From Parcubacteria group bacterium GW2011_GWA2_40_23 (lineage in GTDB: Bacteria; Patescibacteriota; Patescibacteriia; UBA11705; JABHMO01), in assembly GCA_000996245.1 (NCBI GenBank), contig LBYP01000003.1, positions 9,509 through 73,508 of the forward strand: a stretch of DNA of 64,000 nucleotides, read 5' to 3'. A model generated the notes under the pieces. That model was not told the origin of the DNA and ran no database searches. It saw only the letters and a list, made by a program, of their open reading frames with translations. Of this stretch, positions 3,099 to 54,649 are shown one piece after another. Position 1 is the first letter of the stretch, and each line of letters opens with the position of its first letter. Both the position numbers and the translations under genes were made by a program.

Positions 3099-3139
3099 AA
3101 ACAACCCACCCCTTTGACGAGGTGGGCCGATTGATGTCC

Positions 3140-4399: not shown

Positions 4400-4514
4400 T
4401 TGCGTTCCCTCCTGGCAAGTCGGGGTAAAAGACCTGGGCGAACTGAGTTCAACGTACTATTTATCAAAATCATTGTCAATTGAGTTTTCTCAAAAAATGC
4501 TAAGCTATATTCAA

Positions 4515-4766
4515 GAATAACCGCCCCAGATCGAGGTGTCTCATGACCAAGAAGAGAAGTCGTCCGCTCGCAGGTTTCAAGGGTTCGATACTCGGCGGCA
4601 ACCACCCACTCGACGACCAGACACGCCAAGCCATCGCCGACGCCAGAAGGTTCCGCCCAATAACAGAGACACATTGCCCACGTATTAGACCTCGACCACA
4701 AATGGCTGGTCACGTCGCGGTAACGAAAACGCCCCGCAGATCAATTCTGTGGGGCGCTCTTTTTTT
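4515..4766 (+). other. GC-rich (~58%) unit ending in a strong intrinsic terminator. It is either a structured ncRNA or the remnant of a foreign high-GC gene (the 75-aa ORF 4543-4770 has GC3-rich codons in its first half and an SD GAGGTG).
   Basis: Terminator hairpin CGCCCCGCAGA-tcaat-TCTGTGGGGCG plus a T7 run at 4730-4766. Composition contrasts sharply with the flanking ~35% GC sequence. Confidence 0.3.
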
Positions 4767-8437: not shown

Positions 8438-8794
8438 ATGCTACAAAAAATATATCGTATAACAAAGCAATTAGAATTTGACGCCTTCTTTGGCAATAAA
8501 TTCAAACAAGCCCGCGGCCGCAATTTTTCTACGGCTAATTTTATTTTTAAGAGTAAGCCAAATGGTTTAAAGAATTCACGTTTTGGTTTTGTTATTTCCA
8601 ACAAAATTGATAATCGCGCAGTCGTCAGAAATCGTCTGCGTCGTTATACCCGTGAGACAATTAGACTCAATTTAGACAAATTTAAACAAAATTTGGATTG
8701 TTTGATTGTCTTTAAAAAAGGTTCACAGACACTGGATCATGAAAAATTAGAAAAAGAAATTTTAGGCATTTTTAAAACAATTAGATTGTTATGA
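8438..8794 (+). CDS. rnpA: ribonuclease P protein component
   Basis: 118 aa, basic. The RNR motif region VVRNRLRRYTRE is present. Follows rpmH. Confidence 0.85.
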   Translation: MLQKIYRITKQLEFDAFFGNKFKQARGRNFSTANFIFKSKPNGLKNSRFGFVISNKIDNRAVVRNRLRRYTRETIRLNLDKFKQNLDCLIVFKKGSQTLDHEKLEKEILGIFKTIRLL

Positions 8795-9051
8795 AATTAA
8801 AAGTTTTTTTATATTATCCTCGATATATCGCGCTTAAGATGATTCGCTTTTATCAGCGAACTATTTCTTTTGATCACAGCCCCATGAAAGAGTTCTTTCC
8901 AGGTGGTTTTTGTCGTTACAATCCATCGTGTTCAGAATATACATATAAATCAATTGAAAAATACGGCTTAATTAAAGGTGGGTTTAAGGGGGCGTGGCGC
9001 ATTATGCGTTGTAATCCTTGGTCAAGGGGTGGCGATGATCCAGTAAAATAG
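8791..9051 (+). CDS. yidD: membrane protein insertion efficiency factor YidD
   Basis: 86 aa. The Cys motif region FCRYNPSCSEY...GGFKGAWRIMRCNPWSRGGDDPV is present. ATGA overlap with the rnpA stop. Confidence 0.85.
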   Translation: MKLKVFLYYPRYIALKMIRFYQRTISFDHSPMKEFFPGGFCRYNPSCSEYTYKSIEKYGLIKGGFKGAWRIMRCNPWSRGGDDPVK

Positions 9052-9192
9052 TTACGAATAGCCACAGAAAGTTGATGTTACGAATTACTGCTAAGACTCG
9101 ATTGCTAAACAGTAATTCGCAACCTCTAAATAATTGAGTTATTTGTAATATAAAAACACGCCGCACTCGACGAGGAGTACGGCGGTGGCTGG

Positions 9193-9570
9193 CTACTTGG
9201 GAGCAGCTGGAACCTTTGTTTGGGCGTTGAACCTTCGGACTTCCTCTTGGCGAAGCCGGTGCCAGGTCAGGTGCTCCATCACGAGCAGCCAGACGATGGC
9301 GATGAAGTAGACGATTGGCCCGAGGGCAATGGTGATCTTCATCAGGGCTTCTGCCAAGAAGTAGATTGTCGCGGCGAAGATGATCGCACACAGGAAGCTA
9401 ATGCCGGTGCGAGGTGCGAGGCGAATGTCCTTGTCCCAGCTCTTCAGCAGGAGGCTGGTGGTCTGTGCGGTTGTGAAGGAGAGGAACAGGAGGGTGAAGA
9501 GGAACACGAGGTGTCCGTTGCCGGGGCCAGTCCCCAGTTGCGTGGATAGGGAACCAAATAGCTCATACAT
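9193..9570 (-). CDS. hypothetical multi-pass membrane protein encoded in a high-GC island
   Basis: 125 aa, 3-4 hydrophobic segments, GC3-rich codons (~58% GC) in a ~35% GC genome. Confidence 0.45.
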   Translation of the reverse strand: MYELFGSLSTQLGTGPGNGHLVFLFTLLFLSFTTAQTTSLLLKSWDKDIRLAPRTGISFLCAIIFAATIYFLAEALMKITIALGPIVYFIAIVWLLVMEHLTWHRLRQEEVRRFNAQTKVPAAPK

Positions 9571-9791
9571 GGGATTCCTCTATGTTGATAACGTTTGTAT
9601 TGGTACTCCCCACAAGTGAATATAGCACAGGGAAACATCTTTGTCAACTAAAAAGAGAGAAGGGTATAATAAAGCAAAAGAGAAATAAAACAGTAAATTT
9701 AAATAAAATGTTTATGTTTATAGGGACAGGTCGCGACCTGTCCCCGTGCAAAAAAAATAGCGCCGGTAGAAATGTTCCTACCAGCGCATTG

Positions 9792-10148
9792 TCAGCGACT
9801 ACGAATGAGCACTCCCTGGTTGCTGCCAACCGGGCCCGTGCAGGCGATCAGGTCGACGTTCTTGTTCCGGGCGTTTATGGCCCTGAAGGGGCAGGCCCAA
9901 GTGTCTTCCTGGGTGCACCCGAATTCTCGTGCGGGAGCCTTGCAGGCGCCCACCTGGATATCGGCGTACCCTTGCTTCTTCACCGCGGCGGAGACCGTCA
10001 CCGGATTCGGGGGCGATTCCATCGACTTCATGTACTTCACGAACGCAGGCACGGCCACCATCGCGACGACGGCCACCATCGCGACTACGATCATGAGCTC
10101 GATCAATGTGAAACCCTTCCTCATTCCGAACCCCCTTGTGTTGAGCAC
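9792..10148 (-). CDS. type IV pilin / pseudopilin-like protein (prepilin N-terminal cleavage-methylation motif)
   Basis: Leader MLNTRGFGMRKG, then FTLIELMIVVAMVAV (the G|FTLIE class III signal). 118 aa with 4 Cys. High GC. Confidence 0.55.
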   Translation of the reverse strand: MLNTRGFGMRKGFTLIELMIVVAMVAVVAMVAVPAFVKYMKSMESPPNPVTVSAAVKKQGYADIQVGACKAPAREFGCTQEDTWACPFRAINARNKNVDLIACTGPVGSNQGVLIRSR

Positions 10149-10182
10149 TATTGAGCGACGCTGTTGACAGTTGTCAGGAAGG

Positions 10183-10545
10183 TCACCAGCTACGAATCAG
10201 CACGCCGGTGTTGTCGCCGGCAGTACCTGTGCAAACGGTCAGGGTAACGCGCTCCTCTCGTACGTTCTTGGCAGAAACTAAACAGGCAAATCGGTCACTT
10301 TCAGGACAACCGAAGTACTCGGGTTTGTCCGAGCATTTGCTGACCGTGATGTCAGTGTATCCTTGGCGCTGTACGGCCAGGGTAATCGCGGATTTGTTCA
10401 TGGGCACTTTGGGAGCCCGTGGAGACAGAAACAAGTTGTAGAACATGACAGCAATAAGTGACACAGCCGCCGCGATCATCACTATTTCCATCGATGTGTT
10501 GTCCTTGGCACGTGGCATCTTGAACCTCCTTGTGTTGAGCACCAT
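10183..10545 (-). CDS. degenerate paralog of the adjacent pilin-like protein
   Basis: The leader (MVLNTRRFKMPRAK) and C-terminus (CTGTAGDNTGVLIRSW versus CTGPVGSNQGVLIRSR) are shared, but the G-F-T-L-I-E motif is degraded (NTSMEIVMIAAAV). High GC. Confidence 0.45.
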   Translation of the reverse strand: MVLNTRRFKMPRAKDNTSMEIVMIAAAVSLIAVMFYNLFLSPRAPKVPMNKSAITLAVQRQGYTDITVSKCSDKPEYFGCPESDRFACLVSAKNVREERVTLTVCTGTAGDNTGVLIRSW

Positions 10546-10631
10546 TTGAACACACCGTCTTCAACAGATAATCATGCCAGCAAAAAATAATTTTGTCAAT
10601 ACACTGAGGAGTACGGCGGTTCGAACAGGCG

Positions 10632-10943
10632 CTACCTCCTGGGCGGAGGCGGCGTGACGAGCGGCTTCTTCTTGCCGAAGATGAGGGCGAGGATGTAGAT
10701 CGCGCCGCCGACGCAGACGAGGATGAAGGCCCACTTCGCGATCCAGATGGCGATGGCTAGCACGATGGTGCCGGTCACGGCCTTTACCACGGCGCGGACG
10801 ATCTGCTTCTGTAGCGGCTCGTCGGGAGCCGTTTTCTGGAGGAAGAAGAGGATGAACGCGAGAGCCAGGCACCCGATAACCCACAACAGCATGACGCACC
10901 TCCTTCGAAGCGTTTGAGAACCAGCAACCACTCGCGAAGTCAT
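10632..10943 (-). CDS. hypothetical membrane protein (high GC); a likely true start is the internal Met at ~10892 (MLLWVIGCLALAF...)
   Basis: Two TM helices and a C-terminal KKKPLVTPPPPRR. Lies in the same high-GC island. Confidence 0.4.
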   Translation of the reverse strand: MTSRVVAGSQTLRRRCVMLLWVIGCLALAFILFFLQKTAPDEPLQKQIVRAVVKAVTGTIVLAIAIWIAKWAFILVCVGGAIYILALIFGKKKPLVTPPPPRR

Positions 10944-11098
10944 AATTTAGTATATAAAGAGATAAAAGTCAATAGCAAGCGTTGTATGGTTTTGTCGGGA
11001 CGAGTTGCGATTTGTTCCCGCGTAAATGAGGGGTTAGTTGCTCATCATTAAAAAATTCGGCACCAGTCATGAGAGACGGGTGCCGCGTAGGAATGTGT

Positions 11099-11434
11099 TT
11101 AGGACTTTTTCGCTTTGGGCTCTTTGAAGCTGTGGTAGGTTATCGCGATGGCGAGAAGAATCCCGAGAATAGGAACCCTTGTTGCCAGAAGGACACAAAT
11201 GACAGAGTTGAACCCTGCCACGCCAAGGAGATAGACCAACTTTTTCCAGAGAGGGGCTTTGGAAACAGCACGGAGCAAGTCCCTGAAGAGTTCATATCTT
11301 TCTTTGTAGAAAGATTTAGCTTCCGGAGTTTCCAGGAAAATGTATAGGCGCTTGTACATGAAGGAAAGAACAACGCTGAAGTAGAGGGCACCGAAGACGT
11401 AAAAGTAAACGATGTGCTCCCTAAAGACCTCCAT
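11099..11434 (-). CDS. small hypothetical membrane protein
   Basis: 111 aa, two hydrophobic helices, low-GC native composition. Confidence 0.4.
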   Translation of the reverse strand: MEVFREHIVYFYVFGALYFSVVLSFMYKRLYIFLETPEAKSFYKERYELFRDLLRAVSKAPLWKKLVYLLGVAGFNSVICVLLATRVPILGILLAIAITYHSFKEPKAKKS

Positions 11435-11666
11435 GATTCACCATGACACAGTCAATTGCATTAAAATTAGTATAGAGAGAGTACTTTGTCAATGTTGCCA
11501 TTGAATTTAAAAGCAAATTTAGATAAAATGGGAGCATAGCAACAAAAAATAGTTTTACGACAATCAAAAAACAATAAAACAATAAAACAAAAAGTTAACC
11601 ATAGGAGACTCCTTGCTTCTTTGTTTTCTTGCTTTATTGATTGTGTGCCAAGCAATTTAAAATACA

Positions 11667-20039: not shown

Positions 20040-20319
20040 TTTTTGTGATTATATGATTGCCATGATTAAGATAGGTTGTTGTATCGGAAAAAGTTTGAAA
20101 TCATAATTATCATAAAAATCATAGTTAATCATAGTAATGGTAGTGTGCTTGAGTGAAATCATGGTAATCACAAAAATCATAGTTAATCATAGTAATGGTA
20201 GTGTACTTGAGTGAAATCATGGTAATCACAAAAATCATAGTTAATCATAGTAATGGTAGTGTTCCTGAGTAAAATCATGGTAATCATTTAATCATGTAAT
20301 CATAGTAAGCGAAGCGCAC
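20040..20319. repeat. array 1 of the ~58-bp tandem repeat (AAATCATGGTAATCACAAAAATCATAGTTAATCATAGTAATGGT plus a 14-17-nt semi-variable GC-richer segment), ~4 units
   Basis: The direct repeats can be read directly in the sequence. Further arrays at 21373-21651, 21934-22036, 23521-23794 and 24329-24621. Confidence 0.9.
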
Positions 20320-21372: not shown

Positions 21373-21651
21373 ATCATGATTTTTGTGATTATATGATTAC
21401 CATGATTACAACAAGCAGCTTTGTTGTGAAATCACAGTCATCATAAGAATCATAGTTAATCATAGTAATGGTGCTGTCCTCGAGCTAAATCATAGTAATC
21501 ACACAAATCATAGTTAATCATAGTAATGGTGGTGAGGTGCTCGAGCGAAATCATGGTAATCATCTAAATCATAGTTAATCATAGTAATGGTAGTTGGGTG
21601 AATAAATTAAAATCATAGTTATCATTTAATTATAGTAATCATAGACAAAGT
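21373..21651. repeat. array 2 of the ~58-bp AATCATAGT tandem repeat (~4 units)
   Basis: Direct reading of the sequence. Confidence 0.9.
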
Positions 21652-23520: not shown

Positions 23521-23794
23521 GTTTTATCTTTTTCTAAGGAATATGACCAAATAAATTTTTGTGCTATTTCTGAAGAAGTTTTTCATGATTAAAAAATCAT
23601 AGCCCATCAAATAATCATAGTAATGGTGCTTGAGCGAAATCATAGTCCATCATTTAATCATAGTTAATCATAGTAATGGTGGCTGTGTGTTCGAGCGAAA
23701 TCATAGTAATCACACAAATCATAGTTAATCATAGTAATAGTGCTGTCCTCGATCTAAATCATAGTCATCACATAAATCATAGTTAATCATAGTA
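23521..23794. repeat. array 4 of the AATCATAGT tandem repeat (~4 units)
   Basis: Direct reading of the sequence. Confidence 0.9.
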
Positions 23795-24328
23795 ATGGTC
23801 ACAATCACAAAAGCTCACCCAGGCGCCGAAAAGCAGATTTCTGCTTTAGCCGATGATTATTGTCTAAAAGATAAAACAGAAAAAATCAGTAATTCTGGTT
23901 TTATTGTTTTTCCTAAACCGCCAGCCAAGTTTTTGAAGCGGATTAATCATTGTCAGTATTTTTATGTGGCTAAAGAAGGGCACAAGTTAGTGGGATATTT
24001 ATTGGCTTATACATTGAAAGAAATGGAAGATCTGAATGAAAACTTTTCTTATTTTGATGATCTCAAAAATGCGAGCGAAGGCAAGGATATAGTTTTTTTA
24101 GATCAAATAGTAGTTAGTCGAGAGTATACTGGTCGTGGTCTTGGACAAAACTTATTAGATCATTTACTAAGCAACTTGAAGGATAAACATGTTTTTGGAT
24201 TTATACTTCATGCACCAACTAGAAATCAAAGATCGATAAATTTTTTTCAATCAAAAAACAACTGGCAGTTAATTAAAGAAGTAAGTATCGAAGGCATGCT
24301 CTGTGGGCTTTACGGTTTCAAATATTAG
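23795..24328 (+). CDS. GNAT-family N-acetyltransferase
   Basis: VVSREYTGRGLGQNLLDHLL (acetyl-CoA binding motif). The ATG lies inside the last repeat unit (TAATGGTCAC). Confidence 0.55.
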   Translation: MVTITKAHPGAEKQISALADDYCLKDKTEKISNSGFIVFPKPPAKFLKRINHCQYFYVAKEGHKLVGYLLAYTLKEMEDLNENFSYFDDLKNASEGKDIVFLDQIVVSREYTGRGLGQNLLDHLLSNLKDKHVFGFILHAPTRNQRSINFFQSKNNWQLIKEVSIEGMLCGLYGFKY

Positions 24329-24621
24329 TTGATAGAAAATCATGGTAATCATTTAATCATAGTTAATCATAGTAATGGTGGCGTTCCTGAGCTAAATCAT
24401 GGCAATCATTAAATCATAGTTAATCATAGTAAGGGTGCTGTTCCCGAGCTAAATCATAGTCATCACAGAAATCATAGTTAATCATAGTAATGGTGCTGTT
24501 CTCGAGCTAAATCATGGCAATCATTAAATCATAGTTAATTATGGTAATGGTGATGTGTCTGAGCTAAATCATGGTAATCACACAAATCATAGTTAATCAT
24601 AGTCCCGATAGTTAAGTTTTT
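24329..24621. repeat. array 5 of the AATCATAGT tandem repeat (~5 units)
   Basis: Direct reading of the sequence. Confidence 0.9.
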
Positions 24622-25131
24622 ATGAACATACTTTTATTAATCATTTTTATCTTCGCCATCACCTTCGCCTACGCTGGCATTCGTGGCGCACCTTGGGCAC
24701 CAACGAAAAAAAATGATGTACCGCGATTCTTAGAATTAGCTGATATCAAGGGTGGCGAAAAGGTTTATGATTTAGGTTGCGGTGACGGTCGTTTGCTTTT
24801 CGCAGCAGCAGAAAAAGGCGCGGAGGTCATTGGCTATGAGATTTCTTTGTTGCCTTATTTGATTGCGAAGATTAAGCAGTTTTCATTTGTGAAAAAAGAG
24901 CATACTCGGATATTTTTTAAAGATTTTTGGCATGTTAATTTAGCTGAGGCTGATCTTGTTTATTTTTTTCTTATGCCCAAAATTTATGACAAACTTAAAG
25001 CTAAGTTTGAAAAAGAATTAAAACCAGGTAGTCGCGTTATTGCTTATGTTTGGCCGATTGAGGGTTGGACACCGATTAAGGTTAGTACTCTCGAAAATGC
25101 ACAAAAGATTTATCTTTATAAAATAAAATAA
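24622..25131 (+). CDS. membrane-anchored small methyltransferase-like protein
   Basis: N-terminal TM helix, then YDLGCGDGRLL. 169 aa. Paralogous to ORF 26344-26904. Confidence 0.5.
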   Translation: MNILLLIIFIFAITFAYAGIRGAPWAPTKKNDVPRFLELADIKGGEKVYDLGCGDGRLLFAAAEKGAEVIGYEISLLPYLIAKIKQFSFVKKEHTRIFFKDFWHVNLAEADLVYFFLMPKIYDKLKAKFEKELKPGSRVIAYVWPIEGWTPIKVSTLENAQKIYLYKIK

Positions 25132-25153: not shown

Positions 25154-26347
25154 ATGGAAAAAGGAAATAAATATTGTCATGATTGTGGCCAACCAAAAGT
25201 TGAACACATTAATACCTGGATGGAAGAATTGCTAGGTCGTGTTTTGCCATCATTAAAATTACCAAAAAAGTTGGAAGAAATTTCTGATATTATTATTGAA
25301 AAGATTTTTACTCTTTCGAAATTGGCGAGGTTTACAACTGATTTTACTTCGGCAGACATTCAACTCCGCTCATCTTGTTTTATGGCTGAAATGAGGCCAC
25401 GCGGCGCAGTTTTTTATGCTACTAAAACTTCTTATGGCTTTACTAATTATTTTAAAATGGAAGTTGCAGATAAAATTTTTAGGTTCGAGACATTACCCCT
25501 AGCAAAGTTCGAAAGTAAATACCCCGCGAAGCTTGTGGATGACAAAGAATTAGCCAAACGTCACTGCCAAAACGGAGGTTTTCCCATAGCCGAAGGACGG
25601 GTTTTTTGGTTTTGGCAGAAAAAGAAGGCCATGGAATTTGCTCGTCAAGTCGGTTTCCCTTTGGTTGTTAAACCGCGCAGTGGCTCTGTCAGTCGTCACG
25701 TCACAACCAATATACAAAATGACGAGCAGCTAGAAAAAGCTATTCGTCATAGCATCAGTTATTCTCCATCTTTTATTATTGAAAGATTTATGGCTGATAC
25801 TTCAGTGTATAGAGCCACAGTAATTGATTTTGATTTTGTGGCCTGTATTAAACAGGTGCCCGCAAATATTGTCGGCGATGGGATATCGACTATACGTGAA
25901 CTCATCAATCAAAAGAATAATGATTCACGTAGGGGTGACCCAAAACAAAAGCAATTAACGCTTTATAAATTGGTGGAAAATGAAACGACCCAAAAGTTAT
26001 TAGATGAAAAAATGTATGACGATGGTACTATTTTAGCAAAGGACGAGAGTTTCTTTCTACAAAACAATCCATTTTTGAAACTTGGTGGTGATCTTGTTGA
26101 AGTTACGCCTATTGTTCATCCGGACAATCTGCAATTATTTAGAGACTTGGCGCGTCATTTTGATATTCGTTTAACAGGGATAGACTTTTTGGTGAATGAT
26201 ATTTCAGTCTCCTGGAAAGATCAACCTTGCGCAATTCTAGAATTAAACAGTGCACCTTGCATTGAGTTACATCATTATCCATCTTCTGGGGAGCCGACCA
26301 ACCCGGCTGGCGCCTTGGCAGATATGTTTTTTAAATATTACCTATGA
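25154..26347 (+). CDS. ATP-grasp ligase (cyanophycin-synthetase-N-domain/RimK-like) with an N-terminal CxxC region
   Basis: GFPLVVKPRSGSVSRHV and ILELNSAPCIELHHYPSSGEPTNPAGALADMF. 397 aa. Confidence 0.55.
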   Translation: MEKGNKYCHDCGQPKVEHINTWMEELLGRVLPSLKLPKKLEEISDIIIEKIFTLSKLARFTTDFTSADIQLRSSCFMAEMRPRGAVFYATKTSYGFTNYFKMEVADKIFRFETLPLAKFESKYPAKLVDDKELAKRHCQNGGFPIAEGRVFWFWQKKKAMEFARQVGFPLVVKPRSGSVSRHVTTNIQNDEQLEKAIRHSISYSPSFIIERFMADTSVYRATVIDFDFVACIKQVPANIVGDGISTIRELINQKNNDSRRGDPKQKQLTLYKLVENETTQKLLDEKMYDDGTILAKDESFFLQNNPFLKLGGDLVEVTPIVHPDNLQLFRDLARHFDIRLTGIDFLVNDISVSWKDQPCAILELNSAPCIELHHYPSSGEPTNPAGALADMFFKYYL

Positions 26348-26904
26348 TAAGTTTATTTTTTTCAGTTTTTTTGGCAGCCATTATTGTTATTCTGTTCATC
26401 TTTTGGTTGATTTTTATGGTCGATTCTGTTACTCGCGGACATGACTTACCAACGGGACGAAATCAAAGAAAAGAAATCTTTAAAATTATTTCAGAACAGA
26501 AGACAGCTCAAACTTTTTATGATTTAGGTTGTGCACACGGGGCATTGGCTGTGCGGATAAAAGGGAAATTTCCAGCTTTGTCAGTTTATGCCATTGATAT
26601 GGGCTCAGTACGTATCTTCTTTGCTAAAATCAGGGCGTTTGTTTTAAGAAAAAAAGTAAATTTTATTTGTGCTGACATTTTCAATGTTGACTTAAGCCAA
26701 GCTGATATTGTCTACACCTACCTTTGGTATGATATTATGCCAGCCTTAGAAAAAAAGCTTCAAAAAGAATTAAAACCTGGTGCGATTGTCGTTACGAATA
26801 CTTCAAGTTTTCTGAATTGGAAACCAATAAAAGAAATAGCCCCACCGGACAAAGCTTCGCAAAAAGTAAATATTGAAACTTTGTTTGTCTATCGAAAAGA
26901 ATAA
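26344..26904 (+). CDS. membrane-anchored small methyltransferase-like protein (paralog of 24622-25131)
   Basis: N-terminal TM, YDLGCAHGAL, shared LKPG and DIVY motifs. ATGA overlap with the ATP-grasp gene. Confidence 0.5.
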   Translation: MISLFFSVFLAAIIVILFIFWLIFMVDSVTRGHDLPTGRNQRKEIFKIISEQKTAQTFYDLGCAHGALAVRIKGKFPALSVYAIDMGSVRIFFAKIRAFVLRKKVNFICADIFNVDLSQADIVYTYLWYDIMPALEKKLQKELKPGAIVVTNTSSFLNWKPIKEIAPPDKASQKVNIETLFVYRKE

Positions 26905-26905
26905 A

Positions 26906-26946
26906 AAAACCCCGCTAACAGTGTCGACCGAAAGCGGGTTTTTTAT
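26906..26946 (+). terminator. rho-independent terminator closing the accessory block
   Basis: AAAAACCCCGC...GCGGG hairpin followed by TTTTTTAT. Confidence 0.6.
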
Positions 26947-27016
26947 TTCCAATTGTCGCGAAGAGAGCGGCTTGCCCTGAAGTCAAACGCAGTTTGTACT
27001 TCAGGGGCGTTGTTGT

Positions 27017-27838
27017 CTATTCCAGCGGTCCGAAGCTGAGATCTTCGCCGCAGTAGGGACAGTTCTTGACCGCACCGGGCAGGCAGGCGAGCTTCGTCTG
27101 TTTTGCCCTCGGACCGGAGATGTCGATCCAGATGAGCGGTTCACCTTCGGGCGACCAGACGATCCTGTCGACCAGCCTGGTGAATCTGGGGAAGCCGCCT
27201 TGCTTCGGGGTGAGGCTGGCTTGGGCTTCGAGCGCCCGCATGTTTTTGCAGCGATGCAGGTAGCTGCCATCGGGATGGAGGGTCCAGACCGCGTTGTGCA
27301 GTTCCCACTCTTTTTGGAGCAGTTCGATGTACGCCCCGTGATCGAAGCCCAGGTGCGTAGGTACTTCGAACAAGGGGATGAACATGGGATTGACTTGAAG
27401 TGTGTTCAGCCATTTTAGCTCGGGCTTGGTTTCCAGGTCGAGGCGCAGGACCATCGAAAGCCGCCGCTTGTCTGTGCGCTTATCGCGATACAGATCCGAG
27501 TGGAAGTACTGCTTGGCCCAGAGCTTGGGGTCTATCTCGAGACCGAAAGTTGCGGCCAGACGCGTGGCTGTCTGGTTGATGTCATGGTCGCAGAGGCTTT
27601 CTTCGACAGCTGGTTTGCTGACAAAGCTGCGACGCTGACTGACTAAATTCCCGGTTGCGAACTCGGTCGTAGGCAGACAGTGCAAGTGCATCGGCAGGTT
27701 CACCAGGGACTCGAATTTGGGCAGAACGAGCAGGATCTCTGGGGTCTTGGTCCGGAACTTGCGGGTTACCATGATGGACAGGTCTAGCACCAGTGGTGTG
27801 AGTCTTGCTTTCTTGCTTGTCATGATGGGCTCCTTCAT
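27017..27838 (-). CDS. hypothetical protein with a C-terminal CPYC zinc ribbon, in a high-GC island (~55% GC)
   Basis: 273 aa, GC3-rich codons, ends ...CLPGAVKNCPYCGEDLSFGPLE. Confidence 0.45.
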   Translation of the reverse strand: MKEPIMTSKKARLTPLVLDLSIMVTRKFRTKTPEILLVLPKFESLVNLPMHLHCLPTTEFATGNLVSQRRSFVSKPAVEESLCDHDINQTATRLAATFGLEIDPKLWAKQYFHSDLYRDKRTDKRRLSMVLRLDLETKPELKWLNTLQVNPMFIPLFEVPTHLGFDHGAYIELLQKEWELHNAVWTLHPDGSYLHRCKNMRALEAQASLTPKQGGFPRFTRLVDRIVWSPEGEPLIWIDISGPRAKQTKLACLPGAVKNCPYCGEDLSFGPLE

Positions 27839-28429
27839 GCCCAGTTGGACATTTCAATTTAGCAAATTATTGCTGTTCCGTCAACTCCATCCGATTTGCT
27901 CCATCCGATTTGCGAGCCTGCCTGCCGGCAGGCAGGGAGCACCTTTGTTAAGAAAGCGACGTTTACCCTGCACCTAAAGGGCACACTTTATGGTACAGGG
28001 CGGCAATCTCTTAATCAATCCCAAGGAAGCAATCTCCGACATCTTGATGATCGTTAGTTAGTAGGGGCTCAAGATATTGAGCCCCTGGATCTAAATTATC
28101 TTTGCCGTTTACCCCGAATCCAAAGGTCATTGCGAACCCAGCTCTGGGCAGGGGTGAAGCAATCTACCAATTCTCAATGATTTTGTTCTGCTAGAGAACA
28201 AAAGCTTTTTATCGCTGTTATTTATGATTGTTTCATTTTCTTGTTCCTCATAATGCGGTAAATGAAAATGTCATAGGGGTTCAAGACATTGAGCCCTCAT
28301 GGAGTTTTGGTCAAAAATACATTTTTCTGGTATAATTTTGTTTGTAGAAGAGTTTGTAGGGGTTCAAGATATTGAACCCTGCCACAAACAACATTTCAAT
28401 ATTTTTATTAAAAATTATTTTTAAAATTT

Positions 28430-34118: not shown

Positions 34119-34200
34119 GCTTGCCCAGCAGTCAAACAAAGTTTGTACTGCTGGGTTGTCCGCCAAAGACGGACTATATAAAGGACAATGACTAAAGCAA

Positions 34201-41284: not shown

Positions 41285-41374
41285 AAAAAATTGTACGTAA
41301 CAACGCATTTGCGTTGTAGGGAACAAAAATTTTTGTTCCCTACCGTCCATACGGACGGTTCGTACAATTTTTTT
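41285..41374. repeat. ~85-bp nested palindromic element, copy A
   Basis: Outer stem AAAAAATTGTACG...CGTACAATTTTTTT. Inner hairpins GTAGGGAAC-aaaaattttt-GTTCCCTAC and GTCCATACGGAC. Confidence 0.8.
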
Positions 41375-41419: not shown

Positions 41420-41815
41420 TCACTTGAGCGGTTCGAGCAAGACGAACATTGGCACTTCGTTTGCCGTTGGGATGAGGCAAAGCTTGGTGCCGAGCATTTC
41501 GTACTTGTAGATCGCTTCTTTTTCTTCTTTGCTCCGCGAGTTGAAGACGAAGCCGGCGCTTTCGGCCTGAGCGTGTTCATGAACACGCACGTAGAGCAGG
41601 TCCAGCCCAGCGTTCTTGATGTCGGACGGAATATCTGCCGTGGTCTTGGCCAGGTGTTCGGGGGACAGGATCCCTGCGATCGTAACCACGCGGCACGTGT
41701 AGACAGGTGGTTGCTTTCCTTCGGACTGACAGCAGCTGCTTGCTCTCATGACCAGGTACATTGCACTGGCCACGAGCACGAGACATCCGAATGTGAAGAG
41801 ACCACGGAACATCAT
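41420..41815 (-). CDS. hypothetical secreted/membrane-anchored protein, high-GC island (start placed at the MMFRGLF Met)
   Basis: N-terminal TM/signal, GC3-rich codons, C-terminal FVLLEPLK shared with the neighbour. Confidence 0.4.
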   Translation of the reverse strand: MMFRGLFTFGCLVLVASAMYLVMRASSCCQSEGKQPPVYTCRVVTIAGILSPEHLAKTTADIPSDIKNAGLDLLYVRVHEHAQAESAGFVFNSRSKEEKEAIYKYEMLGTKLCLIPTANEVPMFVLLEPLK

Positions 41816-41832
41816 GGTTGACCTCGATGTTG

Positions 41833-42267
41833 TTACTGGATCTTGAGCGGTTCGTACAGGACGAACACACCCATCCGAACGAGGTCGACGCAAAGCGGAA
41901 TCTTGTTCCGCTGGTAGTCGAGGATGCTGGTCATGTTGTTCGGGAACGGTGACGACAGGATGTAACCCTCGTACTTGATGTTGTTGCCCTCGACGTTAGC
42001 CAGCACCACGTACGGCAGTTTCATGAAGGCCGGTTTCACTGCCTCGTTGTGCGGGATGCGCGTCTCGTCGTCGTGGTTTTCCCTCGCGACGATGCTCTCG
42101 ATGGTGACCATGACTTCGGGGCACCAGACGGTGAGCTGCTTCTCTGCCGTGTGGGTGCAGCCCTTGAACGAGAAGAGGTAGCTTAAGCCGATGAAGAAGA
42201 GTGCTCCGAGGAGTAAGCCGCCAATCGCACCAAGGACGCGACGGAGAGTCATGGTAAGCCTCAACAT
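41833..42267 (-). CDS. hypothetical secreted/membrane-anchored protein, paralog of 41420-41815, high GC
   Basis: N-terminal TM (LGAIGGLLLGALFFIGL), C-terminal FVLYEPLKIQ. Confidence 0.4.
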   Translation of the reverse strand: MLRLTMTLRRVLGAIGGLLLGALFFIGLSYLFSFKGCTHTAEKQLTVWCPEVMVTIESIVARENHDDETRIPHNEAVKPAFMKLPYVVLANVEGNNIKYEGYILSSPFPNNMTSILDYQRNKIPLCVDLVRMGVFVLYEPLKIQ

Positions 42268-45420: not shown

Positions 45421-45503
45421 AAAATGTACGCGCAACACGTCTGTGTTGTAGGGAACAAAAATTTTTGTTCCCTACCGTCCAAATGGACGGGGCGTACATT
45501 TTT
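45421..45503. repeat. ~85-bp nested palindromic element, copy B (near-identical core to copy A)
   Basis: GTAGGGAACAAAAATTTTTGTTCCCTACCGTCCAAATGGACGG flanked by the AAAATGTACG...CGTACATTTTTT outer stem. Confidence 0.8.
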
Positions 45504-47053
45504 TATTGTTTCCACAGCTCCTCAAAATAATCATTGTACGATTGCACCAAATGTTCATTTTCAGAAATAAAGAAGATGGGCTTTTTTTTGTCTGCCCAAT
45601 TAGCAATGACGAGTTTTTTGCCATAGAGCCAGACAACATTGGGGTTGCCTATTTTTGAAAGATTATATTTTGTGCGACTCCATGGATATTTGGTAATGGC
45701 ATGGCCTTGGACACTACGATCAACAATATTGCGCCAAATAATCCCCGGAGTATTTTTGGCTTTGGCTTCAATCTTTTTAAAAAGTTCAGGATAATAATCG
45801 ATAAAATATCCGCGGGCGCCAATCAAGCGTAATTCCTTAGTGTCAAGCGCTTCAAACCAAATTTTCTGCAGAGCTTCTGGACCTTGAAGTGTGTACGTTT
45901 CTTGCTGCCAAATATTATCAAAATAATTTTTGAATGATTCAGCCATGATTGGATTATCGAAAGAGATAACAGTTGGAACTTTTTCGTAAAGAATGAAAAA
46001 AATCTTATTGTTATAAATATTTATCTGCATCGGTATGGGGGTGGTGTTGATGTATTTTCTTAAAAAGCTTACTTTGCCTTCGGGATCCCCACATTTGGCA
46101 AATTTTTCTTTTAAATTATCATATGATTCTTGAAAACAAAGCATTTTTGTTATTACACCTTTTTTTATTCTTTCGGTGTGAAATTTGTCGTAGAGTTCAT
46201 GGAAACCAGGTGGATAATCTTTGCCTAAAGCACCGAGAACATAATAATGTTCCCCAGGTTTTAGTGCATTGAGCTGATCATAAATAGCTTCTTCAACAGC
46301 ATCTAATCCAGTTTTAGTGATGGTTCGTTGATTCCAAAAATAGTTGAAGTATTTTTTAAAGCCCTCAACAATTTTTTTGTCTTTGACGCTAATCGTAATG
46401 GGGTTATCACTCATCAACCCGATATTTAAAAGATCATCAATAAAATCAAACCAAAAAGGGGAATCGATATTGAAGGGTAGAAAGCGAGCTTTGCTCAATG
46501 GCAAGGAGTTTCTCCACGCCAAGCCTTCTTTGACGAGTGGGTCAGATGAAAGCTCATATAAAATTTTTTGACTGATTTTTTTCTTTTCACGTTCTTTGTG
46601 AAAACGCTTCCAAAATGATTCCATTTCTGGTTTTGATGTTAAATTTGTTGCGCCAAGAACATAAAACTCACTACCAGCTGGATAATTTAAAACGCGATTG
46701 CGAGCTCTTTTAATCCCTTCAACGCCCGCAAAGATTTGGATGTCGCCAGCTTCTGTGGTGTGTCTTTTGTGTAGTTCAATAATAATTTCCTTCGCTGTTT
46801 CTTCTTGATCAAGAACGTTTTCGAGAATCGATTCAGGATTGTTGGGAATGAACTCAGCTACGCCACGAGAGGTGAGTTTTGAAACCAACTTTTTTTTAAG
46901 TAATGATTCAAGAGACGTATAAACTAGGTTACGATGTAATCCCGTAAGTTCAATTATTTTACCAGCGCGGCTTTTCCCGTTTTCAATTAGGTATAAATAT
47001 ACAGTGATTTCATTAGGTGAAAAGCCTAGTTGTTGTAGTTTGTCTTTTATCAT
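45503..47053 (-). CDS. TrmB-family transcriptional regulator with a triplicated C-terminal domain
   Basis: N-terminal wHTH (ITVYLYLIENGKSRAGKIIELTGLHRNLVYTSL). Three ~150-aa repeats ending FKKYFNYFWNQ, FKNYFDNIWQQ and YNDYFEELWKQ. Confidence 0.55.
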   Translation of the reverse strand: MIKDKLQQLGFSPNEITVYLYLIENGKSRAGKIIELTGLHRNLVYTSLESLLKKKLVSKLTSRGVAEFIPNNPESILENVLDQEETAKEIIIELHKRHTTEAGDIQIFAGVEGIKRARNRVLNYPAGSEFYVLGATNLTSKPEMESFWKRFHKEREKKKISQKILYELSSDPLVKEGLAWRNSLPLSKARFLPFNIDSPFWFDFIDDLLNIGLMSDNPITISVKDKKIVEGFKKYFNYFWNQRTITKTGLDAVEEAIYDQLNALKPGEHYYVLGALGKDYPPGFHELYDKFHTERIKKGVITKMLCFQESYDNLKEKFAKCGDPEGKVSFLRKYINTTPIPMQINIYNNKIFFILYEKVPTVISFDNPIMAESFKNYFDNIWQQETYTLQGPEALQKIWFEALDTKELRLIGARGYFIDYYPELFKKIEAKAKNTPGIIWRNIVDRSVQGHAITKYPWSRTKYNLSKIGNPNVVWLYGKKLVIANWADKKKPIFFISENEHLVQSYNDYFEELWKQ

Positions 47054-47230: not shown

Positions 47231-47842
47231 GTGGAGGCTCTCATGAAGCTCGCTAGCCTGATCCTCGCCCTTGCGCTGGTGCTGTCCTCGACCGTCTTCG
47301 CCCAGGAGCGTTCGCTCTCGGGCAACTTCGAGATCCAGAGCGTGACCCCTGCGGTCGAGAAGAACCTGATCCTGAGCGGCGGCCTGATCTACAAGGTCAC
47401 CCCGCAGTTCGCCGGGAAGCTCTTCTTCCTGACCAAGGGACCCTGGGCCGAAGTCTATGCGGGACCGATGTTCACGCCCGCAGCCTGGATTCAGCTCTAC
47501 GCGTGCGCGGGTGCGAGCCAGAAGGCTGGGGAGCTTGAGCTCCGGACCGCGTACGGCATCAACCTGATCTACCGCGCGTTCGTCTTCAGCGCGGGTACCG
47601 AGATGAACAATGCCGCCTACAAGGGCGACTACAAGTCCATCTGGTACGACATCACGGCTACTTATCAGCCCCTGTCCTGGCTCATCGTGGGCCTGAAGGA
47701 CCGGCGGCCTGTCGGTTTCGGTCCCATGATCCGCTTCCGCTACGACGTGGCAGAGGTCTGGGTCACCTGGGCACCGGTCTCGTCCGAGAACTCGACGACC
47801 GACATGGATCGCTTCATCGTCGGTTTGAAGTTCAACCTCTAG
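47231..47842 (+). CDS. secreted beta-strand-rich (outer-membrane-barrel-like) protein encoded in a ~60% GC island
   Basis: Signal peptide LILALALVLSSTVFAQ, alternating aromatic/hydrophobic pattern, strongly GC3-biased codons, its own terminator. Confidence 0.45.
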   Translation: MEALMKLASLILALALVLSSTVFAQERSLSGNFEIQSVTPAVEKNLILSGGLIYKVTPQFAGKLFFLTKGPWAEVYAGPMFTPAAWIQLYACAGASQKAGELELRTAYGINLIYRAFVFSAGTEMNNAAYKGDYKSIWYDITATYQPLSWLIVGLKDRRPVGFGPMIRFRYDVAEVWVTWAPVSSENSTTDMDRFIVGLKFNL

Positions 47843-52092: not shown

Positions 52093-52248
52093 ATTTCATG
52101 TAAATTTTAAACTGCTTATATTCTATCAAAAATAGCTGTTTTTACCAATTTTTATGTTAATTTGAAATAATTTTTATCTGTTGACTACTGATAACGGAGT
52201 TGTTAATATGCGAGTATCAATGGCATATGGTAAACGCTAAAAACCTCG

Positions 52249-52557
52249 ATGTGGAGGTCGTCCATGGCGCTAAAAAGGTTCGAGCTTGTTTTGCTCCAAA
52301 TTCTTAGCTCGAATCGAGCAGACTGGTGGTTGGCCCTGGACCTTGTTCGGGCCGCTCGAGGATATGTAGGACCACTCTCTGTTTACAGGAGATTCGCTCG
52401 TCTCGAAAAAGCGAGTTTCATTACCTCTCGCGACATGACAGAGGAAGAAGCCACGAACGAATATTGCGAGCTGCCTCGTCGTCGACTCTACCAGATCGCA
52501 ATCCTGGGTATTCGTCAGGCCCGTTCCTTGGGTCTGGTGCAAGGCCGATCAGGCTGA
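52249..52557 (+). CDS. small PadR-like winged-helix regulator in a high-GC island (likely start MALKRFE at ~52264)
   Basis: LSVYRRFARLEKASFITSR resembles the PadR recognition-helix/wing region. A sigma70-like promoter TTGACT-17-TAATAT lies at ~52181-52210. Confidence 0.35.
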   Translation: MWRSSMALKRFELVLLQILSSNRADWWLALDLVRAARGYVGPLSVYRRFARLEKASFITSRDMTEEEATNEYCELPRRRLYQIAILGIRQARSLGLVQGRSG

Positions 52558-52565
52558 ATCAAAAA

Positions 52566-52596
52566 CCCCGCATGGAGCAAGTCCGTGCGGGGTTTT
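52566..52596. terminator. bidirectional intrinsic terminator (A-run / hairpin / T-run)
   Basis: AAAAACCCCGCATGG...CCGTGCGGGGTTTT. Confidence 0.6.
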
Positions 52597-54642: not shown

Positions 54643-54649
54643 TTTCTGA

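What the first reader, a model, noticed from the sequence alone, without database searches (positions are those of the whole stretch)
26950..27850. Additional high-GC islands (26950-27850, 52249-52596, 4515-4766) each bounded by hairpins or terminators
Three further short segments of ~55-58% GC with GC3-rich codons sit in the AT-rich backbone. The first is a 273-aa protein with a C-terminal CPYC ribbon (27017-27838), preceded by a compensatory-hairpin element and followed by a repeat-dense 590-bp spacer. The second is a PadR-like wHTH gene (52249-52557) that has a native-looking TTGACT-17-TAATAT promoter and a bidirectional terminator. The third is a 250-nt GC-rich unit (4515-4766) that is either a structured RNA or a fragment of a foreign gene (K/R-rich N-terminal 40 codons with GC3 ~75%), ending in a strong terminator. 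Including the three islands described above, the 64-kb window holds at least six such inserts.
Basis: partly seen in the sequence, partly recalled or inferred. Interest (0 to 1): 0.55.

Follow-up and report, generated by a model that had tools for sequence, protein, structure and literature searches.

The report
GC-rich accessory genes in a CPR genome
Three short GC-rich patches in an AT-rich candidate-phyla-radiation genome are real but are three different things, and the main one is a fast-evolving, recombining gene for a catalytically dead Nudix-fold protein with a zinc-ribbon tail, not a detectable import from high-GC bacteria.

Summary
The composition anomaly is real: 53-57% GC against a 38% median. 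It recurs in independent assemblies and matches no Rfam or tRNA gene.

- **Island 1** is a minus-strand gene (27017-27823, GC3 0.74) with its own promoter. It encodes a Nudix fold of the ADP-ribose pyrophosphatase/NrtR branch that has lost the catalytic glutamates, plus a ~90-aa HxC...CPxC domain with no PDB match. Only about nine clusters exist among billions of proteins. All with readable context lie in CPR-like genomes, beside the same NTP-transferase/SBP/pilin operon. Two relatives have native GC. The gene is a domain-boundary recombinant (p=7e-35) with dN/dS 0.3-0.45, against 0.02-0.16 for its neighbours.
- **Island 2** is a small PadR-like gene in a variable locus next to hicAB.
- **Island 3** is a 215-nt unit with no codon periodicity or notable structure. 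It sits at a synteny break where a sister genome carries 8.5 kb of GC-rich DNA.

The bounding hairpins are dispersed REP-like repeats and ordinary terminators. I read the islands as flexible-genome genes from a GC-richer, probably CPR-internal pool. Import from high-GC taxa finds no support. Interest is moderate.

The parts
27017..27823 (-). Island 1 CDS, 268 aa (alternative upstream ATG at 27838 gives 273 aa). N-terminal Nudix fold with a degenerate Nudix box (residues ~1-177) plus a C-terminal HxC...CPxC zinc-ribbon-like domain (~180-268). GC 0.57, GC3 0.74.
   Evidence: ORF. GC by codon position. Homologues. Pfam NUDIX in distant homologues. Alignment showing loss of REx2EE and PGGH. AF2 model with pLDDT 79. 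Foldseek hits to NadM-Nudix, NrtR and AraR. Profile against PDB sequences. C-terminal domain model pLDDT 83 with no PDB match (best E 0.55).
27856..27884 (-). Promoter-like site TTGACG-17-TAAATT (TG-extended) for the island 1 gene. It is followed by SD AAGGAG and holds a small AGCA-N3-4-TGCT palindrome in its spacer.
   Evidence: Scan. This block is the best conserved part of the upstream spacer in L001 and L005. The palindrome as a possible operator is inference only.
27286..27330 (.). Recombination breakpoint at the domain boundary (after codon 179).
   Evidence: Sliding identity. Site-pattern test with Fisher p=6.8e-35 (N side 200 vs 18 sites, C side 17 vs 69). Segment dS values.
26903..26945 (.). 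Bidirectional intrinsic terminator (A-run, CCCGCT...AGCGGG hairpin, T-run). It is shared by the convergent methyltransferase gene 26344-26904 and the island 1 gene.
   Evidence: Read from the sequence. Conserved in L005 and L007.
26975..27006 (.).
   Evidence: Compensatory changes in L005 (CCCAGAAGT/ACTTCTGGG) and in a paralogous copy at window 34119-34155 (CCCAGCAGT/ACTGCTGGG). Absent in L001.
27839..28429 (.). Divergent-promoter spacer, GC 0.45 over 27839-28250. It contains a tandem 14-mer (27886-27913), the palindrome GCCTGCCTGCCGGCAGGCAGG (27916-27936), three GTAGGGG..CCCCTAC palindromes (~28060-28086, 28272-28297, 28355-28381), an ATTGCTTC-hairpin-TCGCAATGAC element (28126-28166, minus) and the promoter of the 87-aa membrane-protein gene (28308-28336, plus).
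   Evidence: Copy number of these repeats differs between window, L001 and L005.
52264..52557 (+). Island 2 CDS, 97 aa from the second ATG (GGAGG upstream; alternative start 52249). A small PadR-like winged-helix protein, GC 0.53.
   Evidence: Pfam PadR E=0.055, below the cut-off. Only two homologues. The orthologue in L008 is 83% identical and is preceded by a 28%-identical paralogue flagged PadR (weak).
52181..52209 (+). Promoter-like site TTGACT-17-TAATAT of island 2.
52562..52596 (.). Terminator hairpin (15 bp) after island 2. It is shared with the convergent hicA-like gene at 52606-52824.
   Evidence: The L008 orthologue of the neighbour carries PF07927 HicA_toxin.
4510..4726 (.). Island 3: a 215-nt GC-rich (0.56) unit between the metK promoter region and the dnaN-side terminator. 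It contains most of a 75-codon ORF (4543-4770, plus strand, RBS GAGGTG) that reads through the terminator.
   Evidence: No codon periodicity. No Pfam, NCBIfam (for the overlapping minus-strand ORF) or PADLOC hit. No Rfam hit. Fold z -1.16 on the plus strand and -2.06 on the minus strand. No similarity to any fetched locus or to other islands. Homology with sister contigs L019 and L015 stops at 4727.
4730..4766 (+). Intrinsic terminator (11-bp stem plus T7). Positions 4727-4765 are conserved at 95% beside dnaN in L019 and L015, so this is backbone, not island.
4451..4479 (-). Probable metK promoter (TTGACA-17-TACGTT), which places the GC-rich unit upstream of the metK transcript rather than inside it.
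   Evidence: Read from the sequence. It parallels the TTGACA promoters upstream of metK in L094 and L096. The scan did not call it. Inferred.

Best explanation
The three segments are real compositional outliers but have different identities. All three sit at strain-variable loci of a CPR (Patescibacteria) bacterium, so I read them as flexible-genome DNA.

**Island 1** is an expressed-looking minus-strand gene with its own conserved promoter and SD.
- The N-terminal domain is a Nudix fold of the ADP-ribose pyrophosphatase/NrtR branch. The metal-binding glutamates are lost (REx2EE to RLx2AT, PGGH to PTTEF), so it should bind a ligand but not hydrolyse it.
- The C-terminal ~90 aa carry an invariant H-x-C...C-P-x-C set, presumably a zinc site.
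- The gene belongs to a very small family. In the four distant members with enough flanking sequence it lies opposite to, or near, the same small-membrane-protein / NTP-transferase / SBP / VirB2-like-pilin operon. It is therefore an old resident of that slot, not a recent insert.
- Within the window's clade it evolves much faster than its neighbours. It has also been rebuilt by homologous recombination at the domain boundary: the promoter plus Nudix domain was recently shared with one lineage, and the Zn domain matches another.
- I infer that it works as a ligand-sensing pseudo-enzyme, NrtR-like in logic, in which the Zn domain contacts DNA or a partner and controls the divergent surface-structure operon.

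**Island 2** is a small PadR-like regulator in a locus whose gene content differs between sister genomes, next to hicAB.

**Island 3** is most likely a non-functional or very young remnant at the edge of a replacement hotspot just downstream of dnaN.

**GC-richness.** It marks genes that circulate in, or came from, a GC-richer gene pool. That pool is probably other CPR lineages or their unknown mobile elements. Acquisition predates the split of the sampled relatives, and amelioration is slow at this time depth.

**Hairpins.** They are generic REP-like repeats and terminators.

**Shown:** composition, coding status, fold, motif loss, synteny, mosaicism, rates. **Inferred:** ligand sensing or regulation, zinc binding, donor pool.
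For: - **Composition and codon position:**
- **Independent assemblies:** the same or orthologous sequence appears in several.
- **Rarity:** 3 close homologues among 5.8e9 proteins, and 6 more representatives among 1.84e9.
- **CPR context and slot:** L012, L013 and L014 carry the gene beside the NTP-transferase/SBP/pilin block, and L179 carries it beside a TrmB-like gene as in L012/L014. P0009 is named Falkowbacteria and P0002 Parcubacteria group.
- **GC across the family:** native in L013 (GC3 0.34) and L179 (0.37), slightly raised in L012, high in L014 (0.66) and in the window clade (0.68-0.77).
- **Fold and motifs:**
- **C-terminal domain:** no structural match.
- **Promoter and SD:** conserved across relatives.
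- **Rates:** dN/dS is 0.27-0.45, against 0.02-0.16 for neighbours.
- **Mosaic:** about 90% nt identity to L001 over 27840-27350 and 86-88% to L005 over 27300-27017, with Fisher p=7e-35. N-terminal dS to L001 is 0.21, while flank dS is 1.3-2.1.
- **Co-occurrence:** window-type and L001-type genomes occur in the same assembly ERZ27254739.
- **Variable loci:** the sister genome has an extra PadR-like paralogue and an extra 210-aa gene at island 2. It has 8.5 kb of GC-rich DNA next to a tRNA-like sequence (recognised by eye) at island 3, and an expanded 9-11.5 kb island.
- **Hairpins:** the repeat families also occur at non-island sites.
- **Literature:** genomic islands and mostly intra-phylum transfer are reported as common in Patescibacteria (PMC12455944).
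Against: - No donor was identified, so 'GC-richer pool' rests on composition alone.
- Conserved synteny together with native-GC family members fits in-situ GC enrichment equally well.
- A regulator role is unproven. The protein has no recognisable DNA-binding fold, distant homologues keep an intact REx2EE and may be plain hydrolases, and relaxed constraint with allele shuffling is unusual for a dedicated operon regulator.
- dS values above 1 are saturated, so the rate contrasts are approximate.
- Only three close and six distant sequences support the family analysis, and the structure models rest on a 9-sequence alignment.
- Island 3 has no comparative data, because the only other copy (L178) is 100% identical.
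- Three further GC-rich islands of the window (9-11.5, 41.4-42.3 and 47.2-47.8 kb) were only skimmed.
Confidence: 0.55

Rival explanations
1. One reading: each island is a recent insert of foreign DNA from a high-GC, non-CPR organism, delimited by hairpins or terminators.
For: - Sharp GC steps at gene borders.
- GC-type amino-acid usage.
- Loci that vary between sister genomes.
- The sister contig's 8.5-kb GC-rich block abuts a tRNA-like sequence.
- Some other islands encode type IV pilin-like or signal-peptide proteins.
Against: - No homologue with non-CPR context was found in searches of 5.8e9 and 1.84e9 proteins.
- Island 1 is orthologous, and in the same slot, in relatives whose NTP-transferase is only 74-78% identical.
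- Two family members have native GC.
- No integrase or transposase lies nearby, and the repeat scans showed no target duplication.
- The hairpins are dispersed repeats also found away from islands.
- No phage, viral-contig or PADLOC match.
Confidence: 0.12
2. The GC-richness arose in place. These genes are recombination hotspots, and GC-biased gene conversion, or selection for GC-rich mRNA, drove GC3 up in an otherwise vertically inherited gene.
For: - The same slot is occupied across divergent CPR lineages, with GC ranging from native to very high.
- There is direct evidence of repeated homologous recombination inside the gene.
- GC3 is affected most, at 0.74 against GC2 0.40.
Against: - A shift of GC3 from ~0.30 to 0.74-0.87 is far larger than the recombination-associated GC effects I know of in bacteria (my own knowledge, not checked here).
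- GC1 and amino-acid usage are shifted too.
- The highly conserved neighbouring NTP-transferase shows no GC rise.
- Island 2 diverges at the same rate as its flanks.
Confidence: 0.15
3. A functional rival for island 1: the Nudix/Zn-ribbon protein is a conflict gene (anti-phage defence, counter-defence or host-interaction factor) under diversifying selection, not a regulator of the neighbouring operon.
For: - Non-synonymous divergence is several-fold to about 20-fold higher than in the neighbours.
- Each domain has deeply divergent allele classes, with 40% aa identity between Nudix-domain alleles whose flanking proteins are 92-98% identical.
- Alleles are shuffled between co-occurring lineages.
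- Variable small ORFs and TrmB-like genes surround it in L012, L014 and L179.
- The Nudix domain also matches phage ADP-ribose pyrophosphatase-like models by fold.
Against: - No PADLOC, PHROG-type or phage hit.
- dN/dS stays below 1 in every segment.
- The protein is a single gene with no partner effector.
- Its position relative to the operon is conserved across lineages.
Confidence: 0.2
4. The islands are artefacts (chimeric assembly or contamination) or simply unannotated structural RNA genes.
For: - One other GC-rich patch of the window, 54645-54905, is indeed a strongly structured RNA.
- Window-type and L001-type strains co-occur in one sample, a setting in which chimeras can form.
Against: - Identical sequence appears in separate assemblies: L007 from Logan SRR29904087 and L178 from ENA ERZ27254739.
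- The mosaic tracts are only 87-90% identical to L001 and L005, so they are not spliced copies of those contigs.
- Island 1 has clear codon periodicity and dN/dS below 1.
- No Rfam or tRNA hits.
- Island 3 folds no better than shuffles.
Confidence: 0.03

Closest known systems
NrtR family (Nudix-related transcriptional regulators; PMC2330246) and its BtAraR branch (PMC4666351)
   Same: - The N-terminal Nudix fold is among the best PDB matches by fold and by sequence profile: 3gz8, 3gz5 and 5deq.
- The catalytic Nudix box is degenerate in the window clade. A degenerate box in NrtR itself is my recollection and was not checked here.
- The gene is transcribed divergently from a conserved operon.
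   Different: - There is no C-terminal winged-helix DNA-binding domain. Instead there is a ~90-aa HxC...CPxC domain with no structural match.
- Neighbours are NTP-transferase, SBP and pilin genes, not NAD or arabinose genes.
- Ligand and DNA binding are untested.
- None of the NrtR papers retrieved contains the phrase 'zinc ribbon'.
NadM-Nudix / ADP-ribose pyrophosphatases (PDB 2qjt, 2r5w, 2qjo)
   Same: The top Foldseek hits (E 4e-6) and a profile hit (E 1e-6) cover the Nudix domain. Distant family members keep REx2EE and pass the Pfam NUDIX threshold.
   Different: The window protein lacks the catalytic glutamates and the PGGH motif. The family has a ~20-aa insertion inside the Nudix box and an extra Zn-ribbon-like domain.
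Genomic islands and horizontally acquired genes of Patescibacteria (PMC12455944)
   Same: The segments have atypical composition, lie at strain-variable loci and encode accessory functions. That paper reports that transfer occurs mostly between Patescibacteria.
   Different: The islands here are single genes of 0.2-1.3 kb without mobility genes. Island 1 is an orthologous allele in a fixed slot rather than a presence/absence island, and it is renewed by homologous recombination.
REP-type dispersed palindromic repeats
   Same: Several families of 25-45-nt GC-rich imperfect palindromes are scattered in intergenic spacers. Their stems change in a compensated way between copies.
   Different: The sequences are unrelated to those of enterobacterial or pseudomonad REPs as far as I recall. 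No RAYT/TnpA-like gene was seen in the window, though I did not search for one specifically.
PadR family regulators (PF03551)
   Same: Island 2 is a ~100-aa protein with a weak match to the PadR winged helix, and it has a paralogue with the same weak match.
   Different: The score of 13.9 bits is below the 27-bit cut-off. Only two homologues are known. No target was identified.

Membership tests
Nudix superfamily (PF00293) | Nudix alpha/beta/alpha fold | tested here: met
   AF2 model with pLDDT 79. 83 PDB chains match at E<=1e-3, and those listed are Nudix-fold proteins. The family profile hits PDB Nudix proteins. Distant homologues pass the Pfam threshold. The window protein alone gives no Pfam hit.
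Nudix superfamily (PF00293) | Catalytic Nudix box GX5EX7REUXEEXGU, with the REx2EE metal ligands | tested here: not met
   In the alignment, the window, P0002 and P0003 have T-R-L-A-(A/G/K)-(T/S)-(F/L)-G where P0004-P0009 have REx2EE. PGGH is replaced by PTTEF or PTIEF.
NrtR family | [quoted passage not shown] | tested here: met
NrtR family | C-terminal winged-helix DNA-binding domain | tested here: not met
   The C-terminal 96-aa model (pLDDT 83) has no PDB match better than E 0.55. Its secondary structure is mostly beta, with an HxC...CPxC set.
NrtR family | Binds ADP-ribose-type effector and an operator upstream of target genes | not testable with these tools
   Only a small AGCA-N3-4-TGCT palindrome in the promoter spacer was noted. 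This is inference.
Horizontally acquired genomic island | Atypical base composition relative to the host backbone | tested here: met
Horizontally acquired genomic island | Mobility genes, tRNA adjacency or flanking direct repeats | tested here: not met
   No integrase or transposase ORF lies next to islands 1-3. The tRNAs are at 16153 and 58820 only. The repeat scans showed no flanking duplication. The sister contig L019 does have a tRNA-like sequence, recognised by eye, beside its 8.5-kb GC-rich block.
Horizontally acquired genomic island | Patchy presence among close relatives, and homologues in a plausible donor | tested here: inconclusive
   Island 1 is present in all three close lineages and, as distant homologues, in four more CPR contigs. 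It is absent from the Magasanikbacteria species representatives L098-L103. No donor taxon was found. The island 2 and island 3 loci differ between sister genomes.
PadR family (island 2) | Match to PF03551 above the gathering score | tested here: not met
   13.9 bits against a 27-bit cut-off, E=0.055. The paralogue in L008 is flagged PadR (weak). The resemblance is plausible but membership is unproven.
Structured non-coding RNA (island 3) | Rfam match, or folding energy and covariation beyond chance | tested here: not met
   There is no meaningful Rfam hit; the low-scoring matches (12-18 bits, far below gathering scores) fall mostly on the terminator end of the unit. Fold z is -1.16 on the plus strand and -2.06 on the minus strand. 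Covariation cannot be tested because the only other copy is identical.

The most novel reading that the evidence does not exclude
The GC-rich islets of this CPR clade form one system: a pool of short exchangeable gene units moved or renewed between co-occurring lineages at fixed slots. Either the structure-conserved REP-like hairpins at their edges serve as recombination or recognition sites, loosely like cassettes, or intense recombination itself keeps extreme GC3 in an AT-rich genome. Island 1 would then also be the first Nudix-type sensor that uses a new zinc-ribbon domain as its output module.
Probability: 0.12. Interest if true: 0.7.

Novelty: new variant of a known kind. Interest (0 to 1): 0.38.

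Why it matters
CPR bacteria have tiny genomes, and their accessory genes probably shape how they interact with hosts. This locus gives a concrete, testable case of three things:
- a gene kept in one chromosomal slot across lineages while its two domains are swapped between co-occurring strains;
- a Nudix enzyme turned into a probable sensor with an undescribed zinc-binding partner domain;
- extreme GC3 persisting in an AT-rich genome, which bears on whether composition alone can be read as evidence of foreign origin.

In practice, it warns that GC islands in such genomes mix fast-evolving native-slot genes, small regulators, remnants and, at 54.6 kb, an unannotated structured RNA.

Tried and rejected
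- **RNA genes.** Rfam at gathering and at permissive thresholds, on the whole window and on sub-regions, gave no family for any of the three islands. ARAGORN found tRNAs only at 16153 and 58820.
- **Protein families.** Pfam, NCBIfam and PADLOC gave nothing for the island 1 protein or the 75-aa ORF, and only a sub-threshold PadR match for island 2.
- **Phage or viral origin of island 1.** tblastn against phage genomes and an IMG/VR pattern scan found nothing. A scan with the wider alignment A3 could not run because it has no conserved stretch.
- **GTDB species genomes.** No relative of the island 1 protein was found by pattern scan, nor by tblastn or HMM on 80 NTP-transferase loci.
- **SAM riboswitch or metK leader for island 3.** Rejected. 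The metK promoter lies between the unit and the gene, and relatives have short AT-rich leaders.
- **Island 3 as a relic of the sister genome's GC-rich block or of other islands.** blastn and tblastx found no similarity.
- **Hairpins as island borders or attC-like sites.** Rejected, because the same repeat families occur at 13.1, 13.4, 34.1, 35.4, 57.1, 61.2 and 63.3 kb.
- **Chimeric assembly as the source of the mosaic.** Rejected, because the tracts are only 87-90% identical to the other lineages and the sequence is reproduced in other assemblies.
Full report
**Setting**

The window is about 38% GC (median of 250-nt windows 0.380). It starts near a replication origin: dnaA is at 6292-7677, dnaN at 4897-6024, and rnpA and yidD follow at 8438-9051.

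Close relatives are metagenomic CPR contigs. One homologue is named Parcubacteria group bacterium GW2011_GWC2_38_7 and a distant one Candidatus Falkowbacteria. The nearest GTDB species representatives, judged by the NTP-transferase gene, are Candidatus Magasanikbacteria at only 69-74% identity. Backbone genes have GC3 of 0.23-0.42.

Yes for composition. GC is 0.570 for 26950-27850, 0.534 for 52249-52596 and 0.560 for 4515-4766. The peaks lie 3-4.6 robust sd above the median. No Rfam family or tRNA lies there.

The sequence is not an assembly accident:
- Contig L178 (ENA ERZ27254739) is 100% identical to the window over 10,770 nt.
- L007 (Logan SRR29904087) encodes identical proteins around island 1.
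- Orthologous GC-rich genes appear in further ENA, JGI and Logan assemblies.

The 'GC3-rich codons' claim holds only for island 1, with GC1/2/3 of 0.58/0.40/0.74. Island 2 is 0.58/0.49/0.53. The island 3 ORF is 0.57/0.57/0.53, and no frame shows periodicity.

**Island 1: the gene**

The ORF lies on the minus strand. A promoter-like TTGACG-17-TAAATT site sits at 27884-27856. It is followed by AAGGAG and a second ATG at 27823, which matches the 268-aa database copy. This promoter block is the best-conserved part of the upstream spacer in relatives.

The window protein gives no Pfam or NCBIfam hit. Homologues are very rare:
- A search of 5.8 billion proteins found three: 100%, 73% and 53% identical.
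- An exhaustive profile search of 1.84 billion representatives added six.
- Those six pass Pfam NUDIX and end in CPxCG.

The alignment shows that the distant members keep PGGH and REx2EE. The window clade has PTTEF and R-L-A-A-T-F at those positions, so the metal-binding glutamates are gone. It also shows an invariant H...C...CPxC set in the C-terminal part.

An AlphaFold model (pLDDT 79) matches Nudix structures. The best are NadM-Nudix ADP-ribose pyrophosphatase (2qjt), the NrtR Nudix domain (3gz8) and BtAraR (5deq). A sequence profile hits the same PDB entries. The C-terminal 96 residues, modelled alone (pLDDT 83), match nothing in the PDB (best E 0.55). Viral structure models match only the Nudix part.

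**Island 1: an old resident of a fixed slot**

In L001, L005 and L007 the gene sits between the ATP-grasp and methyltransferase genes and a block of 87-aa membrane protein, NTP-transferase, SBP and VirB2-like pilins. It is on the opposite strand to that block.

Distant homologues are only 22-30% identical to the window protein, yet in L012, L013 and L014 they sit beside the same block. The NTP-transferase there is still 74-78% identical. L179 shows the gene beside a TrmB-like gene, as in L012 and L014, but the block itself is not in the fetched sequence.

Gene GC differs between these contigs:

| Contig | Gene GC or GC3 | Contig GC |
|---|---|---|
| L013 | GC 0.41, GC3 0.34 | 0.37 |
| L179 | GC 0.41, GC3 0.37 | 0.36 |
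| L012 | GC 0.49 | 0.43 |
| L014 | GC 0.57, GC3 0.66 | 0.39 |
| Window clade | GC 0.55-0.59, GC3 0.68-0.77 | 0.38-0.40 |

The family is absent from the syntenic loci of the Magasanikbacteria representatives.

**Island 1: fast evolution and mosaicism**

Against L005 the flanking proteins are 92-98% identical (the methyltransferase 75%), but the island protein is only 53% identical. dN/dS is about 0.43-0.44 for the island gene and 0.02-0.16 for its neighbours.

Sliding identity shows a switch:
- From 27840 to about 27350 the window is ~90% identical to L001 and ~52% to L005.
- From about 27300 to 27017 it is 86-88% identical to L005 and ~64% to L001.

A site-pattern test puts the breakpoint after codon 179, which is the domain boundary. 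On the N side 200 sites favour L001 and 18 favour L005. On the C side the counts are 17 and 69. Fisher p is 6.8e-35.

The N-terminal tract has dS 0.21 to L001, although flanking genes of those two lineages have dS 1.3-2.1 (saturated). It has dS 1.30 to L005. So at least one recent exchange and one replacement by a very divergent allele occurred. dN/dS remains 0.27-0.45 in all segments, so the gene is constrained, if weakly. Window-type and L001-type genomes occur in the same assembly.

**Island 1: flanks**

The left border has two parts. One is the bidirectional terminator at 26903-26945. The other is a hairpin at 26975-27006 with compensated stem changes in L005 and in a second copy at 34119-34155.

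The 590-bp spacer holds several repeat families:
- three GTAGGGG...CCCCTAC palindromes, also found at 13.1 and 13.4 kb;
- a GCCTGCCTGCCGGCAGGCAGG palindrome, also found in L005 and L019;
- an ATTGCTTC-[variable compensated stem]-TCGCAATGAC element, with copies at 57.1 and 63.3 kb and in L001, L005, L013 and L019.

These are dispersed REP-like repeats, not island borders. Their copy number varies between relatives.

**Island 2**

The ORF most likely starts at 52264, after GGAGG. The Pfam PadR match is below threshold. Only two homologues exist.

The sister contig L008 has the orthologue at 83% aa identity, with flanks at 82-86% nt identity, so there is no excess divergence. L008 also has an extra upstream paralogue (99 aa, 28% identical, GC 0.51) and an extra 210-aa gene. 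A hicA/hicB-like pair lies next to island 2 at 52606-53035. I conclude that this is a small wHTH regulator in a variable locus.

**Island 3**

Island 3 lies between two features that are not part of it:
- **Terminator.** The terminator at 4730-4756 is conserved at 95% beside dnaN in the sister contigs L019 and L015. Homology stops at 4727.
- **metK promoter.** It lies at about 4479-4451 on the minus strand. Relatives have short AT-rich leaders with a TTGACA promoter.

The GC-rich 4510-4726 unit is therefore neither the dnaN terminator nor the metK leader.

Nothing identifies the unit itself:
- It has no codon periodicity and no family hit.
- It has no Rfam hit.
- Fold z-scores are -1.16 and -2.06.
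- It has no similarity to any fetched locus or to the other islands.

The 75-codon ORF has a good RBS but reads through the terminator hairpin. At the same position L019 carries about 8.5 kb of 50-60% GC DNA. That DNA encodes many small proteins with Asp-box-like motifs and ends next to a tRNA-like sequence; both were recognised by eye. L016 is also GC-rich downstream of dnaN. The window instead has a metK / peptidase S51 / 396-aa block that other CPR contigs also carry. I read island 3 as a remnant or very young element at a replacement hotspot, with low certainty.

**Interpretation**

The three segments are accessory or fast-turnover DNA at loci that differ between sister genomes. Their amino-acid usage is shifted as well as their GC3. 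This points to a long history under a GC-richer regime, or to a strong local bias.

Import from high-GC taxa is not supported for two reasons. No homologue was found in a non-CPR context. Island 1 also belongs to a family tied to one chromosomal slot, and some of its members have native GC.

I favour acquisition from a GC-richer, probably CPR-internal pool before the sampled lineages split, followed by homologous exchange. In-situ enrichment remains possible. Published work reports many genomic islands and mainly intra-phylum transfer in Patescibacteria (PMC12455944).

For function, the loss of catalytic residues, the ADP-ribose pyrophosphatase/NrtR-type fold and the conserved divergent arrangement suggest a ligand-sensing pseudo-enzyme that controls the neighbouring operon. 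A conflict-gene role is the main functional rival.

**Limits**

- The family has very few sequences.
- dS values above 1 are saturated.
- The structure models rest on shallow alignments.
- No donor was identified.
- There are no expression data.

Noticed in passing
It has its own TTGACT-17-TATTAT promoter (read from the alignment) and a strong terminator. MFE is -123.8 kcal/mol with z = -6.75. Four compensatory pairs appear against a single orthologue. A second, shorter tandem copy exists in the sister contig. A 5' hairpin buries GGAGG and the AUG of a 13-codon ORF. No Rfam family matches.
   Followed up: partly
window 20058-20300, 21418-21630, 23626-23840, 24296-24650: Arrays of a ~58-nt tandem repeat (core AATCATAGTTAATCATAGTAATGGT) fill several intergenic spacers between small plus-strand genes.
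   Followed up: no
window 28126-28166(-), 57064(-), 63258(+); L001 5750; L005 5837 and 5739(-); L013 6822(-); L019 471, 14814(-), 19301(-), 19411: A dispersed hairpin family, GATTGCTTC-[inner stem of variable, compensated sequence; loop often CCCAKAG]-TCGCAATGAC. In L019 two copies lie at the end of the 8.5-kb GC-rich block. No associated transposase was looked for.
   Followed up: partly
L019 11230-19600: The sister genome has ~8.5 kb of 50-60% GC DNA directly after the dnaN terminator. It encodes many small paralogous proteins with S-x-D-x-G-x-T-W (Asp-box-like) motifs and ...VLIKR/K ends. It is followed by a terminator and a tRNA-like sequence on the opposite strand, recognised by eye. L016 is also GC-rich at this position.
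   Followed up: partly
window 9000-11500, 41420-42267, 47231-47842: - The 9-11.5 kb island holds two paralogous ~120-aa ORFs, one with a prepilin N-methylation motif, plus small membrane ORFs.
- The 41.4-42.3 kb island holds two small membrane proteins that both end in ...EPLK(IQ).
- 47231-47842 encodes a 203-aa protein with a signal peptide and GC3 0.87.
- The sister contig L019 has about 4.9 kb where the window has 2.5 kb at the first of these islands.
   Followed up: partly
window 1231-4399: The archaeal-type metK (PF01941), peptidase S51 and 396-aa gene block is conserved in other CPR contigs (L094, L096). It is absent at this position in the sister contig L019. The window's metK has GC3 0.57, against 0.37-0.47 in the other contigs, and its best database hit is only 79% identical.
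   Followed up: partly
window 41301-41372 and 45433-45504: An 88%-identical 72-nt compound palindromic repeat (GTAGGGAACAAAAATTTTTGTTCCCTAC plus CCGTCCA..GGACGG) flanks the segment 41.3-45.5 kb. That segment contains the 41.4-42.3 kb GC-rich island and the SMC gene. A related copy lies at 61209-61248.
   Followed up: no
window 52606-53035 (-): A hicA/hicB-like toxin-antitoxin pair lies directly beside island 2. It is conserved in L008, where the orthologue carries PF07927.
   Followed up: partly
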